DNA from: a virus
Taxonomy: Duplodnaviria > Heunggongvirae > Uroviricota > Caudoviricetes
IMG/VR virus record: IMGVR_UViG_2579778529_000004
Coordinates: 1-28,161 of that record
Reading direction: 5' to 3' (one strand)
DNA length: 28,161 bases
Below are positions 9,001-18,000 of the stretch, piece after piece (the stretch's first letter is position 1; every line of letters begins with the position of its first letter). The position numbers are program-made.

Positions 9001-12000
9001 GGGACGCGGATTCATATCTTCCAGGTCACGGCAGTCATTGGGAGAGTAAATTCCCCAGTTAATCCCGGTGGCGTAGGCTTCAAAACGGGACTTCATATCC
9101 CCGCGCAGTAACGCCCCGGCGTTAAATTTGGCGTAATAAACGCCCTGCTTACTTTTTCGTACCAGTCCGGTGTTGATCCGCTGTTCGATGCGGGTCAGAT
9201 ACGGCACCAGTGAATAGTTGATAAATCCGAGCCCCAGTTCTTCGATATTGTTGAAGGTGGCGCGATCGGTGTTCTGTACCATGTGCAACGGCACCCGGAA
9301 CAAACGACAGATTTCTTCAAGCTGAAACTTGCGGGTTTCCAGGAACTGGCTGTCCTCGGCGTTCAGCGCCATCGACTTCCAGTCCAGCCCCATCTCAAGG
9401 ATCATCGGGCGGTGAGCATTACCAAGCCCGGTGTGACGCTCCTCAAAATCTTTCTTCAGGCGCTCATAAGCCTGATCCGACAGCGTCTGTTCAGTACGCA
9501 ACACACCGGACGTCACCGCACCATTGCTGAACAGCCTGGCCCCGTGCTCTTCGGTCGCAGCTGCCAGCGATATTGCCTCGCGGGCATAGGCGATGGGATT
9601 CAGTCCCACCAGACCGTCCAGCGTCAGCGTGCGCACATGCCAGATATCCTCCTGGGTCAGCACATCCGTGGAGCCGTCCGGGAATGTGACCTGATAGACC
9701 GGTTCCCAGCTACTGTTAAGCTTCGGTACCACACAGCCGGGATCGACGGGCAGCAGTTCAGCCACTTCGCCAAATGCTTTCACTTTGTAGGCGTAAAAGT
9801 TTCCCCGCAGGCACAGACAGGTGACCACCAGCTCCCAGAACTCCTGCGGCGTCATATAGCCATTGGGATGCGTGGAGATCAGCTTATGCAGACGTTCGTC
9901 GGTGGCTCTCTGTTTCAGGCTGCCGTTCAGGTGATACAGATTGCAGGGCAACATCCCGACCGACTCTGCCAACACCCTGACGCAGGAAAAAACCGCCGTC
10001 AGTCGCATGGCCCGCTGGCTGCTGATCTGCTTTCCGGTATAGGTGTCATATGACAGCCCGATAGCATCCGCCAGCTCTGCTGGCGTGGTCACCGGCGCGT
10101 CACTTTTTCGTTGAAATAATCCCGAAAAGAACACTATTTACCTCCGCCGACAGACGGCTGTGTACGGTCGAGATATCGCGCCACCAACCACGACCAGAAC
10201 AGGCACAGCACCCCGGCAACAACAAAACCCGCCGGGGGATAAATCAGCCAGGCACCATACGCCAGCAAAAGCGCCCCCAGCACGCCCACCAGTGGCGCGA
10301 GAATTATCAGAAACATAATGACCTCGGTTAAAGCGAGCGGATGCCCACGCTGACCAGATGTTCAGACAGATCCGGCTCCGGTTCACCACCATTGACCAGC
10401 ATCCGGCTCATTGCTGTAAACATCGCAACAGGGCCGTCGATTTTGGCTTCCGGCGTGGATTTATTCGGGAAGATGTTGTCGTTTTTGTCCGGTTTTACCG
10501 TAACGTTAGACATCATCCAGTTCATGACCGGATGATTGCTGTGATGGAAACGCCCGGCATAGACCAGTGATTCCGTTTCCTTCATGGCCTCTGACAGATT
10601 GCGAACCGTCTGCGGAACCTCCACCAGCGGTATCCCTTCTTCAGCCAGTGCCAGGCTGAACTGCATCGCGCTCCACGGGTCAAATCCCAGTTCCCTGAGG
10701 TTTTCACCACCAATCCATTCCAGTAAGTCACTTTTTATCTGAGCATGATCGATAACATCACCATCCGTCAGAATCAGCTTATCCATCTCCGCCCACTTCC
10801 GGTAAAGTTCTGCCTGCTGCCGCGAGCATCGTTCCAGCCGTCCTTCCGGAAGCCAGAATTTAAAATCGGCATGAACATGCCCGTTATCCGTTCGCCAGAG
10901 TTTTGCCGCCGCACAGATATCAATCTTATGAGCAAGGTCAACGCCGACCCACATGGGATACGTTTTCAGCTCATGTCGTGGGGCAATGTATTCGCACTTC
11001 TCCCACTTAATCATGTCCATCCAGGCAGACTCTGCTGTTACCCACACATTCATGTGTTTGGTAAGAATATTTCAAGTTTTTTAAAATCACCTGTATATCA
11101 ATCGTTTAACATGAAAAAACAGTCTTTATAAATCATCAAGCAATACACAGCGCAATACACGTATCTGTATTGTTTTAATGCTGATACACACCGTTTTTTG
11201 ATACAGTGATTCGACCTACCATCGCGAAGAATTTTTTATTTCTTGTGTGTAACAATCTGACGAGGTGAGCACTCAAAGAGATAAGAGGCAGTAGAAATTT
11301 CGATCCCCCCTGAATGCAATTTTTCGTATATATATACAAAACAGCGCGGGTTATGCGGGTTAGCGGGTTATCTTCGCGTGCTAAGCATTTTTTACTCTTT
11401 AATATCAATAAGTTAAAAAAACAACGTATTTAAATATCAGCCAGAATATAACCCGCAAGACATTCAAAATAACCCGCAAACACCCCTCAAATAACCCGCA
11501 AAAACATCCCTGAAAGTGGGCGCTGGTAATACTGAAAATTTATTCCATTAAATGAGCATTGTCCTCTCTCATCCATTCCGTTACACACCATCAAACGCCG
11601 CAAGCCGCTCTTTGTGGCTGTCGCTCATATCGAATGCAAATTCCTCATGCTCTGCCTGGAATGTGCCAAACGCCATCAGCGCCGCAACGCTCGGGTCTAT
11701 CTTGTTGGATGATTTTTTCTTGTTCGGCTTGATATTGGCGTTCGCGTCACTCTGCATCACAACATTACTCATTGACCAGGCCAACACCGGATCACCACGA
11801 TGCACAATCACCTTCCGGTTAACAAAAACTTCGAACGATTTCGCCGCCGGACTGAAACGAAGATATGTTTGCGGGAACGGCTCCACCTCAAATCCTGCTC
11901 CCTGTAGCTGCGTCCTCAGGTGCGTGGCGTTCCATGTATCGAAGCCCACCAGCCTGATATTGAAATTCTCTGCATCCGCCATGATGTCATCACGGATACG

Positions 12001-15000: not shown

Positions 15001-18000
15001 AGCGACGGGAGGCCAGCCATTCCGCATCCTGGTTACTCATCCCCAGTTGCTTGTAATCCATGCCCCCTTCAAGGATTGGCGTTTTTCCGGCATTTTTCGC
15101 CCCCTTGTAGCGTTCCAGTGCGTCTAATGCCTGTTTACCTTTCACGCCGTCCAGCCATTCGCCTGACGTGATAATCCCTGCCGCCATCATGCCATCTTTC
15201 ATAATGCTGGCTCCGTGACGCTGTTGAGCAAGGCCAAGCCCCAGCGCCTCACGGCAAATCGTGATGGGGGAGCGTCCCAGAAAGCCATCATCCGAGGCAT
15301 AGCGGAGATGCAGAACTTCTTCCTGTAAATACGTGCGCACCGTTCCTGTACAGGGTTCGGTGATGGTATAGCGGTATTTGTGTGCGCCTGTGCGTTCCGG
15401 TACAACACACCCCGGCGCATAAGGATGAAGTGATTTTGGCTGACCGTCCCGCCCCCATTCAATAACCGCATAGGCGTTACCGTTCAGCAGGCAGTGACGC
15501 ATCATTGTGCGTTTAAACTGGTAAGGTGTCTGGCACGAATTAGGCTGCTCATTCAGCAGAATATCTACCGGATGACTGTCCAGCCATTCCCGCGCCTCCC
15601 TGCCCTTGTCATTACGTACCAGATACAGATAACACGGCATCGTGGCCACCGCCTCAGCGATGACGGAAACCGCGTTCATCACTGCGGGCAATGATTCAGC
15701 CGTCCCGGCAGAAACATATTCTCCGGATCCGGTATTCGGTACGCCGGACAGCACCAGAAAATCATCAATGGACAGGTTACGTTGCTCGCTTTTTTTACGA
15801 CTAAAAGGCCACCACATATCACAACCCCGCCAGCTCTGCCCAGCGATGACGATTATTTCCTGCCGGGCGTAATTCAGGGTGCTGTGCAAACAACGAACGG
15901 TGGGCAATCTCCACGCCAGATTCGGGATAAGCAGGCATCGACGTGATCGTGATTTCCCTGAGTTCTGCAGCGGTAACAGTACGCAGATACGGTTTTTGCG
16001 CGATATTCCACTCTTCGCATAATGCGCGAAAGCCAAAGCTCATCCCTGTAATGTCGCCACGCTCCACCAGCGTAAGCACATCTTTTCCAAGCTGGGTATC
16101 AGGCGGTGTCAGTTCAAAACGTAGCCCGGTGTTGTCCTCAGTCAGTACCAGAGTGCCGGATTTGGTGCGCCCCAGCAGTTGGGTATAGTCATGCTCATAC
16201 AGGCAGCGCACATCATTACCCGCCGCCAGATAGTCAGCAAAAGCCCCCGGCGTGAACTGTTCGCGGAATTCGTCCCAGATAATTTCTGAAAGGCTGTTCC
16301 AGCGAACGGCATACCCCACCAGCTTTTTATTGCTGGCGGTCAGTTCAGATGTGCGGATTTCAAAATCGGTGTTTTTCATCGGTGTACTCCATAAAGCTGA
16401 AAAAGGAGGCCGCAGCCTCCTCCTTACTCATGACTAGCCAGCTTTCATTTCCAGAATTTTGATGGCGTTTGAATCCACCACACCACCGCCCAGATATTTA
16501 TCCGTGTGGACCTTGTAGAATCCGGGTTCAGTAATGTTGTCCGGTCGGGTGCGAATCCCTGTTACATGATCAACGATGAAATAACCACGACTGAAATCGC
16601 CAACCGCTAGCGGTGCTTTTCCTGCGCCGATGTCCGGCATGGACTCCAGGCAGAAAACAGGACGACCAAGCAACATATCCGGCGCACCTTCTTTAAGGCT
16701 GTCGCGCCAGATATAATCGCCATTCTCATTTTTCAGCTTCTGTAGTGTCCCTGCCGTGCCCGAGTTCATCACCCAGACGGCATTTTTGCGGTATTTCGCT
16801 TTCAGCTTGTAGAGAATGTCGATCAGTTCGTCCGCTGTAATGGCGGTTCCACTTGCCGCTACCACTTTTTCAATGGTGCCAAAAGCGCGGGTTTTGTCAC
16901 TGGTCGCCGCACGGGTGTAAGCCATGAAGCCTTTCGGCTTGCCGTTACCGTCGCCATTAACAAAATCATCCTCTTCGGTGCTGGCGAACGTGTCGGCAAT
17001 TTCGGAGGATAACCAGCCCAAAATATCCACCTCTGAAAAATCCAGGATTTCCTGCGTGGTTTTCGGGTAGGCGTAGATCTGATTCAGCTTGATGGTTACA
17101 CGTTCAATTTTCGGGGTGTTGGTTTCACTACGTGCGCTGCCTTCTGTGCCTCGTCCTACAGTTGCGCCGCCAGTGGAAACCAGTTTCTGAAACTCATTTG
17201 ATTTTGCGGTCTTCACGGTCGCGATCACGCGCATAACACTGTCATCCTGTAGCTGGCGCATGACTTCGCGATCAAGCTCAGGAATTACGGTATATCCGCC
17301 ATCCCTGCCGCTGTCAGTGCTGGTGGACAGTGATCGCACATCTCCGGTTACGATGTAGTTACGCAATTCATCAGATGATAATTTCTGGATGCCCGTTCCT
17401 GGCTTGCTGCGTTCTTCATCAGCCACAGACTCGAGGCGGTAAATTTCTGTGTCGAGGGAATCGGCTTTTGCACGCAGTTCATCAAACTGTTTGCCCTCGT
17501 CATCGTTCAGGCTGCGGTTTTCACTGTCGGCTTTTTCCAGCAGGGATCGCATCTGGTTTTTCAGGGCGGTTTTTTGCTGGCGGAGTTCGATTAATTTCTT
17601 CATGAAGGTTTTCTCGTATTGGTTAAGATTCAGGACGTGAAACCAACACGGAGGGAGCGCCGCCCGACACTCTCGGCATCTCGCAGATCAACCCGGCATC
17701 GCGCAGGGGGTCAGGCGGCATTGTGGCGGCTCACGTCTGAGTGCCACACGCCAACATATACATAAAAATCAGTATGTAAACATCAGCCAGAATCACCGAA
17801 CAACCTGGAACAACCACGAACAAATAATTTACAAAACCTGAAAAAAAGACCTGGAGAAAATCCAGGCCTTTATCGCTTTATTGTTTCACTGGATCCCGCA
17901 TTCTGCGTCTTATTTTCCACAGATATTCGATCATCGCTTCCACCTGCTCACGATTGGTTGCGAAAATTTCCCCGGTCAGTGAGCTGCGCAGAAAATCATG

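What the first reader, a model, noticed from the sequence alone, without database searches (positions are those of the whole stretch)
11416..17793. Near-identical 22-bp motif in two noncoding regions of the insert
GTAT(T/G)TAAA(T/C)ATCAGCCAGAAT occurs at 11416-11437 (insert end, beside the crr-like iterons) and at 17772-17793 (about 170 bp upstream of the capsid operon), 20/22 identical. It may be a shared activator or repressor site or promoter element. The copy at the insert end points toward the helper terminase C-fragment and portal, so it could drive readthrough into helper genes.
Basis: seen in the sequence. Interest (0 to 1): 0.5.

Follow-up and report, generated by a model that had tools for sequence, protein, structure and literature searches.

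The report
Repeated 22-mer: promoter piece and origin spacer
The two near-identical 22-base stretches are real, but one is part of the promoter of the satellite's capsid operon and the other is a poorly conserved spacer inside a second replication-origin-like repeat cluster, and related elements show they vary independently, so they are probably not a shared control site.

Summary
A match this good between any two positions is expected about 0.1 times per shuffled window.

The insert (about 11065-25709) is a known kind of element: a helper-embedded PICI in a prophage terL that also carries its own capsid and packaging genes.

- **Copy 2** lies between an intrinsic terminator and the capsid gene. 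Its right part holds the -35 hexamer (TTTACA) of a sigma-70-type promoter whose geometry is conserved in 68 distinct sequences from many genera. Its left 13 nt are near-random there.
- **Copy 1** is the linker between the last spaced iteron and a conserved IHF-consensus site in a crr-like second iteron cluster. It is among the least conserved parts of 35 distinct modules.

Within single related elements the two sites match at only 12-20 of 22 positions, so they do not co-vary. No -10 follows copy 1.

One residual oddity: TTCTGGCTG also occurs upstream of int, and one diverged relative keeps it there.

Verdict: ordinary parts of a known element; a shared function is unproven. Low interest.

The parts
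11426..11447 (-). Copy 1 of the 22-mer. On the minus strand it reads ATTCTGGCTGATATTTAAATAC. It is the linker between the last spaced iteron and the IHF-like site of the crr-like module.
   Evidence: Mean column entropy is 0.86 bits over 35 distinct modules. No promoter is predicted here.
17772..17793 (-). Copy 2 of the 22-mer. On the minus strand it reads ATTCTGGCTGATGTTTACATAC. It consists of a 13-nt variable segment, the -35 hexamer and 3 further nt of the capsid/packaging operon promoter.
17775..17780 (-). Predicted -35 hexamer TTTACA of the packaging-operon promoter.
   Evidence: Conserved as TTTAC(A/T), 0.47 bits, over 68 distinct leader-anchored sequences. Coordinates.
17753..17758 (-). 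Predicted -10 hexamer TATGTT, with a 16-nt spacer and 5 nt before the conserved leader.
   Evidence: (0.33 bits). The EDL933-type lineage has the same geometry (TTTTAC-17-TATTCT, then 5 nt, then leader).
17798..17834 (-). Conserved box TTGTAAATTATTTG followed by three GTT(G)TTC repeats at a 10-nt period. Probable activator site (inferred to be AlpA-type).
17841..17869 (-). Intrinsic terminator (11-bp stem plus U7) that ends the upstream replication-module operon.
   Evidence: -17.4 kcal/mol, z = -3.7. Coordinates.
17723..17747 (-). Invariant leader GTGGCACTCAGACGTGAGCCGCCAC. It is either a hairpin at the predicted 5' end of the operon mRNA or, alternatively, a DNA-level site.
   Evidence: (0.03 bits). 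No Rfam family matches.
16434..17603 (-). Satellite major capsid protein gene, the first gene of the packaging operon (followed by protease, portal, connector, HNH, TerS and TerL down to 11581).
11448..11501 (+). Three spaced iterons ATAACCCGCAA (21-22 bp apart) of the crr-like module.
11403..11415 (+). IHF consensus site TATCAATAAGTTA (WATCAANNNNTTR) in the AT-rich core of the crr-like module.
   Evidence: 30 of 35 distinct modules keep the consensus. Coordinates.
11346..11372 (-). Three tightly packed iterons in the opposite orientation. They close the crr-like module.
   Evidence: 0.06 bits.
19185..19320 (.). Primary iteron cluster (ori) just downstream of the DUF927 primase gene. It uses the same iteron and has the mirror-image arrangement of the crr-like module.
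25576..25595 (-). Third, partial copy GGTTCTGGCTGTTTTCATCA upstream of int, 14 nt from the doubled attP motif. It is preceded by a degenerate GTTC block at 25601-25624.
   Evidence: TTCTGGCTGTT is kept at the same spacing in L268, whose Int is 66% identical.

Best explanation
The two 22-mers belong to two different functional modules of a helper-embedded, capsid-encoding PICI. They are not a maintained, shared control site.

**Copy 2** is part of the sigma-70-type promoter of the satellite's capsid/packaging operon. An intrinsic terminator closes the upstream replication operon. After it come a conserved TTGTAAATTATTTG box and three GTT(G)TTC repeats phased at 10 nt. I infer these are the binding site of the AlpA-type activator. 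Next come 13 unconstrained bases (ATTCTGGCTGATG), the -35 hexamer TTTACA, a 16-nt spacer and the -10 TATGTT. Five bases later the invariant leader starts, so the mRNA should begin with a hairpin.

**Copy 1** is the variable linker between the last spaced iteron and an IHF-consensus site plus AT-rich core. These lie in a second, inverted iteron cluster that works like the crr of P4: a second set of sites for the element's initiator, 7.7 kb from the ori.

**The 20/22 likeness** is confined to one sublineage of each module. It is best read as chance between two AT-rich spacers, helped by the common oligomer CTGGCTGAT, or as a short historical sequence transfer with no selection to keep the two sites alike.

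**Shown:** positions, conservation profiles, lack of co-variation, promoter consensus and geometry.

**Inferred:** promoter activity, transcription start, IHF and initiator binding, the AlpA role, and the origin of the similarity.
For: - **Gene content and boundaries of the insert:**. They match the published helper-embedded PICI description, including the doubled attP motif.
- **Copy 2 as promoter.** The scan finds TTTACA-16-TATGTT overlapping it. A terminator lies upstream. In 68 distinct leader-anchored sequences the -35 has 0.47 bits of entropy, the -10 has 0.33, the leader 0.03, and the left 13 nt of the 22-mer 1.47. The EDL933-type lineage has the same geometry with a different sequence.
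- **Variable left half.** Elements with 98-100% identical capsid protein carry ATTCTGGCTGATG, TTACTGACAGGTG, TGACTGACAGGTG, TTTCCTGCTGGTG or unrelated sequences at this place.
- **Copy 1 as spacer.** In 35 distinct crr-like modules the 22-mer has 0.86 bits, two of the three spaced iterons 0.03-0.09, the tight iterons 0.06, the AT-rich core 0.27 and the IHF-like site 0.39. Thirty of the 35 keep the IHF consensus.
- **No co-variation.** Identity between the two sites within one element ranges from 12 to 20 of 22 over at least 13 module combinations. Elements exist with an intact copy 1 and a different promoter allele (L094, L097, L101, L113, L115), and with promoter allele A and a diverged copy 1 (L091, L095, L099, L106, L111).
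- **Chance level.** 0.1 comparable pairs per shuffled window, and a 5-fold over-representation of CTGGCTGAT.
Against: - A 20/22 match between two noncoding sites is still unlikely: about 3e-4 by my analytic estimate if only the roughly 1.5 kb of satellite noncoding DNA is counted, although that restriction is post hoc.
- TTCTGGCTG occurs three times in the satellite's noncoding DNA, always in the same orientation and just before a T-rich hexamer. The copy upstream of int is kept at identical spacing in L268, where most of the surrounding sequence has diverged.
- The four differences between the window-type copy 1 and the next-closest crr allele (GTTTTGGCTAATATTTAAACAC) all make it match copy 2. 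If the window type is the derived state, that points to a directional process. The tree is unrooted, so the polarity is unknown.
- No transcription or binding data were available, so promoter activity and factor binding are inferred only.
Confidence: 0.55

Rival explanations
1. A real shared protein-binding site centred on TTCTGGCTG. A satellite protein would bind upstream of int, in the crr-like module (copy 1) and just upstream of the -35 of the packaging promoter (copy 2), and so couple integration or excision, replication and capsid expression. The most plausible binder is the Int-linked AlpA paralogue at 24109-24330.
For: - Three same-orientation copies lie in roughly 1.5 kb of noncoding satellite DNA, against one elsewhere in 28 kb.
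- TTCTGGCTGTT is kept 14 nt from the doubled attP motif in L268, whose Int is 66% and AlpA1 60% identical, where most of the surrounding sequence has diverged.
- The element has two AlpA-family genes, and only the second is the orthologue of the single AlpA of EDL933-type elements.
- The crr allele that carries TTCTGGCTG is found in contigs that carry this Int.
- All four differences from the nearest crr allele go toward this sequence.
Against: - Elements with the same Int module carry promoter alleles without the 9-mer (L094, L113, L115 and probably L101).
- Promoter allele A occurs with a different int/alpA module that has no such 9-mer near int (L003, L111).
- HE-PICIs with about 50% identical Int (L272, L273) lack it at that position.
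- The association of copy 1 with this Int is expected from physical linkage alone, because the two are adjacent across attP.
- The conservation evidence rests on a single diverged relative.
Confidence: 0.25
2. Copy 1 is a second promoter, paralogous to the capsid-operon promoter, that fires leftward. In the integrated state it would transcribe the helper terL fragment and portal gene. In the excised circle it would read across attP into int.
For: - The orientation is the same as copy 2, with a -35-like TTTAAA at the equivalent position.
- No terminator is predicted between copy 1 and the helper genes.
- All satellite and helper late genes are co-oriented.
Against: - No -10 with the required A2 and T6 lies 16-18 nt downstream. 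The best candidate is TATTGA, which is part of the conserved IHF-like site. The scan finds no minus-strand promoter in 11050-11650.
- The -35-like hexamer itself varies across crr-like modules (TTTAAA, TTCAAA, TTTGAA, AGTAAA, AATAAA).
- None of the upstream features of the packaging promoter (box, GTTC repeats) is present here.
Confidence: 0.08
3. The likeness is a footprint of short-patch sequence transfer (gene conversion or replication template switching) between the two AT-rich regions in an ancestor that carried both. Later module shuffling spread the converted allele. There is no present function.
For: - All four differences between the window-type copy 1 and the nearest allele create matches to copy 2. 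The older-looking allele already matched at 16/22.
- These elements are highly mosaic.
Against: - 16/22 similarity is far below what homologous recombination normally needs (established knowledge of RecA-dependent recombination).
- The polarity of change is not established.
- The changes could equally reflect selection for the int-upstream type of 9-mer.
Confidence: 0.12

Closest known systems
Helper-embedded PICIs (HE-PICIs; Mageeney et al. 2023, PMC10111431), terminase-gene site group
   Same: - A satellite with int, alpA, a Bro-N gene, primase plus ori, and a late zone is inserted in a prophage late gene (terL) and co-oriented with it.
- The doubled motif TGTATTGC-N3-TGTATTGC lies on both sides of the attP core at about the published distances (78 and 135 bp from the core centre to the nearest edge, against the published 81 and 132).
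- Precise excision restores terL.
   Different: In the text I read, that paper does not describe the 22-mer, the second iteron cluster or the capsid-operon promoter. This element carries a complete capsid and packaging module.
Capsid-forming PICIs such as EcCIEDL933 (Alqurainy et al., bioRxiv 10.1101/2022.09.08.507074)
   Same: - Same late-module content and order: capsid, protease, portal, connector, HNH, TerS, TerL.
- 82-85% nucleotide identity over that module.
- Same upstream box, GTTC repeats and promoter geometry.
   Different: EDL933-type elements sit in chromosomal sites (beside phoQ and roxA, or in tqsA). They have one alpA, a different sequence at the 22-mer position, no crr-like module after terL, and a second, inverted GTTC block between int and alpA.
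Bipartite origin of satellite phage P4 (ori plus crr, both bound by the alpha primase-helicase)
   Same: Two clusters of the same iteron lie kilobases apart (19185-19320 and 11346-11501). One is next to the primase gene and the other is far away near the end of the element. From my own knowledge, P4 needs both ori and crr in cis.
   Different: - The iteron is ATAACCCGCAA, not the P4 TGTTCACC, which is absent from the window.
- The initiator is a DUF927 protein.
- The second cluster is an inverted mirror image of the first with an IHF-consensus site, not two 120-bp direct repeats.
- A requirement in cis is untested.
Excisionase-type proteins that double as transcription regulators through phased direct repeats (lambda Xis X1-X1.5-X2, P2 Cox boxes and activation of the P4 late promoter, P4 Vis). 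Comparison from my own knowledge.
   Same: Three 10-nt-phased repeats lie upstream of the packaging promoter. Similar blocks lie in the int-proximal arm of attP in several lineages. Overexpressing alpA is used to drive EcCIEDL933 reproduction.
   Different: This concerns the neighbouring GTTC block, not the 22-mer. Binding of AlpA to it is my inference and is untested.

Membership tests
Sigma-70-type promoter (copy 2) | A -35-like and a -10-like hexamer 16-18 bp apart | tested here: met
   TTTACA-16-TATGTT, 9 of 12 matches, on the minus strand at 17780-17753. The region yields 1 site against 0.4 expected in shuffles.
Sigma-70-type promoter (copy 2) | Elements conserved in position among homologous regions | tested here: met
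   Over 68 distinct sequences the -35 has 0.47 bits and the -10 has 0.33 bits at fixed distance from the leader. The EDL933-type lineage has the same geometry.
Sigma-70-type promoter (copy 2) | A transcript starts 5-9 nt downstream of the -10 | not testable with these tools
   No transcript data available. The predicted start is at about 17745-17748.
Sigma-70-type promoter (copy 1) | A -35-like and a -10-like hexamer 16-18 bp apart | tested here: not met
   No minus-strand site in 11050-11650. The best -10 candidate, TATTGA, lacks the final T.
Shared cis-regulatory site (one factor, two sites) | Both sites conserved above their surroundings in related elements | tested here: not met
   The left half of copy 2 has 1.47 bits. 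Copy 1 has 0.86 bits and is among the least conserved parts of its module.
Shared cis-regulatory site (one factor, two sites) | The two sites co-vary within elements | tested here: not met
   Within-element identity is 12-20 of 22 over at least 13 combinations, and all allele combinations are seen.
Shared cis-regulatory site (one factor, two sites) | The same protein binds both sites | not testable with these tools
   Needs EMSA, footprinting or ChIP.
P4-type crr (second cis replication region) | A second cluster of the same iterons as the ori, distant from it | tested here: met
   ATAACCCGCA occurs at 11345-11371 and 11448-11500, and at 19185-19309. Inverted pairs of such clusters 7-11 kb apart recur in related contigs.
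P4-type crr (second cis replication region) | Sequence homology to the P4 iterons (TGTTCACC) | tested here: not met
   TGTTCACC is absent from both strands of the window.
P4-type crr (second cis replication region) | Required in cis for replication and bound by the initiator | not testable with these tools
   Needs replication assays with deletions, and binding assays.
IHF binding site (next to copy 1) | Match to WATCAANNNNTTR | tested here: met
   TATCAATAAGTTA at 11403-11415. The consensus is kept in 30 of 35 distinct modules. The 22-mer itself does not match it (ATCAGCCAGAAT lacks the TTR; read from the sequence).
Helper-embedded PICI (HE-PICI) | [quoted passage not shown] | tested here: met
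   The core TTACCAA is at 11058-11064 and 25703-25709. The flanks are collinear with an intact terL (L250), which is uninterrupted in about 900 genomes.
Helper-embedded PICI (HE-PICI) | The doubled motif tgTGTATTGCantgTGTATTGCa on both sides of the attP centre (published at 81 and 132 bp) | tested here: met
   Found at 11140-11160 and 25552-25572, co-oriented, 78 and 135 bp from the core centre to the nearest edge.
Capsid-forming PICI | Encodes its own capsid, protease, portal, connector, HNH, TerS and TerL, but no tail genes | tested here: met
   Pfam hits for all seven in 11581-17603, and no tail gene in the insert.

The most novel reading that the evidence does not exclude
TTCTGGCTG is the recognition element of a satellite protein, most plausibly the extra Int-linked AlpA paralogue. 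It would be placed at three control points of a helper-embedded satellite: the int-proximal arm of attP, the second origin-like iteron cluster, and the -35 flank of the capsid-operon promoter. One excisionase-type protein would then coordinate excision, replication and capsid expression once the helper's late transcription reaches the embedded element.
Probability: 0.2. Interest if true: 0.45.

Novelty: new member of a known kind. Interest (0 to 1): 0.22.

Why it matters
As a shared control site the motif would have been a handle on how an embedded satellite times its capsid production and talks to its helper. The evidence makes that unlikely. What remains useful is an annotated regulatory map of this class of satellite:

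- a conserved capsid-operon promoter with an upstream repeat block and an invariant leader;
- a second, IHF-associated iteron cluster.

Neither was described in the papers I could read, and both are directly testable. The finding itself is ordinary.

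Tried and rejected
- **Known motifs inside the 22-mer, read by eye.** IHF: ATCAGCCAGAAT lacks the TTR. Sigma-54 -24/-12: TA sits where GC is needed. LexA CTG-N10-CAG, the DnaA box and the P2 Ogr / P4 delta TGT-N12-ACA also fail. None fits.
- **Rfam** over the whole window at gathering thresholds: no hit.
- **The 11139/25551 repeat as the crossover core.** Joining there does not restore terL. It is the published doubled attP motif, and the real core is TTACCAA.
- **Enrichment of ATCAGCCAGAAT-like 12-mers** (11 against 2.3 expected). Most are in coding DNA, and CTGGCTG-type oligomers are 3-5-fold over-represented generally. I read this as a codon-bias effect, not a signal.
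- **General duplication test.** I asked whether other lineages repeat a piece of their capsid-upstream region elsewhere in the element. The hits were the GTTC block, not the 22-mer position.
- **More diverged relatives of the integrase.** The metagenome scan returned only identical copies. The viral scan gave one informative relative, L268. The E. coli search gave L272 and L273, which lack the 9-mer.
- **A regex error.** The regex mis-registered the window-type crr alleles by starting at an earlier iteron. For those I used instead.
- **The terminator scan** missed the hairpin at 17841-17869. Folding shows it clearly.
- **The cf-PICI papers** contain no mapped promoter, cos site or ori for these elements.

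Full report
**Observation.** The pattern GTAT(T/G)TAAA(T/C)ATCAGCCAGAAT occurs twice in the window, both on the + strand and 20/22 identical, at 11426-11447 and 17772-17793. Both copies are in noncoding DNA.

The tool's 'expected 0' refers to this particular pattern. The relevant question is how often any two 22-mers in 28 kb match at 20 or more positions.
- Dinucleotide shuffles give 0.1 such pairs per window, and 10% of shuffles have at least one.
- The real window has three: this pair, the attP 'doubled motif' pair (real and published), and a pair in coding DNA at 716/25297 that looks like chance.
- CTGGCTGAT is about 5-fold over-represented in comparable DNA.

So the match is unusual but not compelling on statistics alone.

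**Context.** All long ORFs run on the minus strand.
- **Prophage.** The window holds an HK97-like prophage late region whose terL is split into a C-terminal fragment (10328-11053) and an N-terminal fragment (25537-26730).
- **Insert.** In between lies a 14.6-kb element. It carries int, two AlpA-family genes, a Bro-N gene, a DUF927 primase, SSB and a ProQ/FinO protein, and then a complete capsid and packaging module: capsid 16434-17603, protease, portal, connector, HNH, TerS, and TerL 11581-13242.
- **Boundaries.** Comparison with an uninterrupted terL (L250; about 900 of 5426 E. coli genomes have one) places the crossover core TTACCAA at 11058-11064 and 25703-25709, so precise excision restores terL.
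- **Already described.** This is the helper-embedded PICI configuration, including a terminase site group and the doubled motif tgTGTATTGCantgTGTATTGCa around attP (PMC10111431). I find that motif at 11140-11160 and 25552-25572. The late module is that of capsid-forming PICIs.

**Copy 2.** The intergenic region 17604-17877, read on the minus strand, contains in order:
1. an intrinsic terminator (11-bp stem plus U7);
2. the box TTGTAAATTATTTG;
3. three GTT(G)TTC repeats at a 10-nt period;
4. the 22-mer;
5. an AT-rich stretch;
6. a GC-rich leader of about 145 nt.

The promoter scan finds one site, TTTACA-16-TATGTT, at 17780-17753, and the -35 hexamer lies inside the 22-mer.

I collected 160 loci around homologues of the capsid protein, at 59-100% identity, from many genera and from IMG/VR. 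I anchored 68 distinct sequences on the leader GTGGCACTCAGACGTGAGCCGCCAC. Mean column entropies were:

| Segment | Entropy (bits) |
|---|---|
| Leader | 0.03 |
| -10 hexamer | 0.33 |
| -35 hexamer, TTTAC(A/T) | 0.47 |
| Box | 0.76 |
| Left 13 nt of the 22-mer | 1.47 |

The left 13 nt are therefore close to random. Elements whose capsid protein is 98-100% identical to the window's carry ATTCTGGCTGATG, TTACTGACAGGTG, TGACTGACAGGTG, TTTCCTGCTGGTG or unrelated sequences at that place, in front of the same -35, -10 and leader. The divergent EDL933-type lineage has another sequence but the same geometry: TTTTAC-17-TATTCT, then 5 nt, then the leader. Copy 2 is therefore an unconstrained spacer plus the -35 hexamer of the capsid/packaging operon promoter. 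Promoter activity and the start site are inferred.

**Copy 1.** The iteron ATAACCCGCAA occurs in two clusters: 19185-19320, just downstream of the primase gene, and 11346-11501. The second cluster mirrors the first. On the minus strand it reads: three spaced iterons, the 22-mer, an AT-rich core, then three tightly packed iterons in the opposite orientation. The same module sits at the far end of a classical PICI with the same primase type (L007). Inverted pairs of such clusters 7-11 kb apart recur in IMG/VR contigs.

An alignment of 35 distinct modules gives these column entropies:

| Segment | Entropy (bits) |
|---|---|
| Spaced iterons 1 and 2 | 0.09 and 0.03 |
| Spaced iteron 3 | 0.53 |
| Tight iterons | 0.06 |
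| AT-rich core | 0.27 |
| TATCAA-N4-TTR at 11403-11415 | 0.39 |
| The 22-mer | 0.86 |

The TATCAA-N4-TTR site is a perfect IHF consensus, kept in 30 of 35 modules. Alleles at the 22-mer position range from ATTCTGGCTGATATTTAAATAC through GTTTTGGCTAATATTTAAACAC to GCCACGGCTAAACAGTAAACAG. No acceptable -10 follows the TTTAAA, and the scan finds no minus-strand promoter in 11050-11650. Copy 1 is therefore a weakly constrained linker in an origin-like module that works like the P4 crr. It is not a homologue of it: the P4 iteron TGTTCACC is absent.

**Do the two copies belong together?**
- An exact scan of 2.9 million viral contigs for TCTGGCTGATRTTTAMATAC found 37 stretches. All are in these two contexts except one in what reads as coding sequence.
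- Within single elements the two sites match at 20/22 (window, L001, L089, L090, L092), 19/22 (L098, L114), 16/22 (L111, L097), 14/22 (L091, L099, L094, L101, L113, L115) and 12-13/22 (L095, L106, L230) (some identities counted by hand from those outputs).
- Elements with an intact copy 1 but another promoter allele exist, and so does the reverse.

The modules reassort freely and nothing keeps the two sites alike. That argues against one factor needing both sites.

**Residual signals.**
- TTCTGGCTG occurs four times in the window. Three are in the satellite's noncoding DNA, in the same orientation: copy 1, copy 2 and 25585-25593 upstream of int. The third is preceded by a degenerate GTTC block and lies 14 nt from the doubled motif.
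- In L268 (Int 66% identical, another integration site) TTCTGGCTGTT is kept at the same 14-nt spacing while most of the surrounding sequence has diverged.
- It is absent at that place in HE-PICIs with about 50% identical Int (L272, L273) and near the int of L003-type elements, although these carry promoter allele A.
- The element has two AlpA paralogues. The 92-aa protein is the orthologue of the single EDL933-type AlpA, and the 73-aa protein is Int-linked.
- The four differences between the window-type copy 1 and its nearest allele all create matches to copy 2, but the tree is unrooted.

These points keep alive, at about 0.2-0.25, the reading that the 9-mer is a real binding element. They do not rescue the specific pairing of copy 1 with copy 2.

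- The orientation argument is correct.
- Copy 1 lacks promoter features.
- No terminator is predicted between the satellite terL and the helper genes, so readthrough from the capsid-operon promoter, or from helper late transcription, is possible without copy 1. The HE-PICI paper already proposes passive helper-driven late transcription.

**Neighbouring element.** The GTTC block is the more general feature. It precedes the capsid promoter in most enterobacterial lineages examined. It also recurs, inverted, between int and alpA in EDL933-type elements, and upstream of the arm repeats of int in L003, L097, L111 and, in degenerate form, in the window. I infer that it is the site of the AlpA-type excisionase/activator, by analogy with lambda Xis sites and P2 Cox boxes (my own knowledge). 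This fits the use of alpA overexpression to drive EcCIEDL933 reproduction. It is untested.

**Verdict.** The repeat is real, and the context is a known type of element. The two copies are ordinary parts of two different modules, a promoter -35 region and an origin spacer, and show no comparative evidence of a shared function. Interest is low. The most novel reading not excluded is a TTCTGGCTG-binding regulator acting at three control points.

Noticed in passing
window 11058-11064 and 25703-25709 (cores); insert about 11065-25709: The satellite is inserted in the prophage terL at the 7-bp core TTACCAA, co-oriented with the late operon. Precise excision restores an intact terL, as found uninterrupted in about 900 of 5426 E. 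coli genomes. All close relatives of this Int examined (94-100% identity; 17 viral loci) sit in terL. This is the published helper-embedded PICI configuration (PMC10111431).
   Followed up: yes
L272 (NZ_CP062851) 8649-9057 and L273 (NZ_CP169755) 8649-9057: Relatives of the integrase (about 50% identity) belong to satellites inserted in the major capsid gene of lambda-like prophages. These satellites carry their own lambda-like capsid and decoration genes. This matches the published tropism of this integrase clade for prophage late genes.
   Followed up: partly
window 17798-17834 and 25601-25624; L002 18782-18808; L003 17251-17277; L111 15062-15088; L097 12728-12754: A block of three GTT(G)TTC repeats at a 10-nt period precedes the capsid-operon promoter. 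It recurs near int: inverted between int and alpA in EDL933-type elements, and upstream of the int arm repeats in others. It is a candidate binding site for the AlpA-type excisionase/activator. I found no description of it in the papers I read.
   Followed up: partly
window 17723-17747 (minus strand): The 25-mer GTGGCACTCAGACGTGAGCCGCCAC, 5 nt after the predicted -10, is essentially invariant over 68 distinct sequences from many genera, which makes it more conserved than the genes around it. It folds as a 5'-terminal hairpin and matches no Rfam family. It could be an mRNA leader element or a DNA-level site such as the cos cleavage site.
   Followed up: partly
window 11403-11415 (+ strand): A perfect IHF consensus, TATCAATAAGTTA, lies in the AT-rich core of the second iteron cluster. 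It is kept in 30 of 35 distinct modules.
   Followed up: yes
window 25576-25595 (minus strand); L268 about 1937-1947: A third partial copy of the motif (GGTTCTGGCTGTTTTCATCA) lies upstream of int, 14 nt from the doubled attP motif. TTCTGGCTGTT is kept at the same spacing in a relative whose Int is only 66% identical.
   Followed up: partly
window 24109-24330 and 23767-24045 (minus strand): There are two AlpA-family genes in tandem after int. The second (92 aa) is the orthologue of the single AlpA of EDL933-type capsid-forming PICIs (58-60% identity). The first (73 aa) overlaps the int stop and travels with this Int clade.
   Followed up: partly
window 716-737 and 25297-25318: The end of the tape-measure gene and the integrase gene match at 20 or more of 22 positions around CTGATCGCGCATCT(A/C)TCTCGC. 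This is probably chance, since about 0.1 such pairs are expected per window.
   Followed up: no
L002 5380-5967; L003 4300-5008; L004-L006 equivalent: EDL933-type capsid-forming PICIs have no crr-like module after terL. Instead they have a 93-aa ORF followed by several repeats of the type GGCGCGGTAACTGGTTGATATTCCCGA and CTAACCCGCTGATATTTTCGG. Their function is unknown; they could be packaging or replication sites.
   Followed up: no
L001 (NZ_AP027404, strain EC416) 14896-16104: The otherwise 100% identical element in strain EC416 carries an IS1414 insertion between the YlcI-like and Bro-N genes. The window lacks it, so the window comes from a different, near-identical copy.
   Followed up: no
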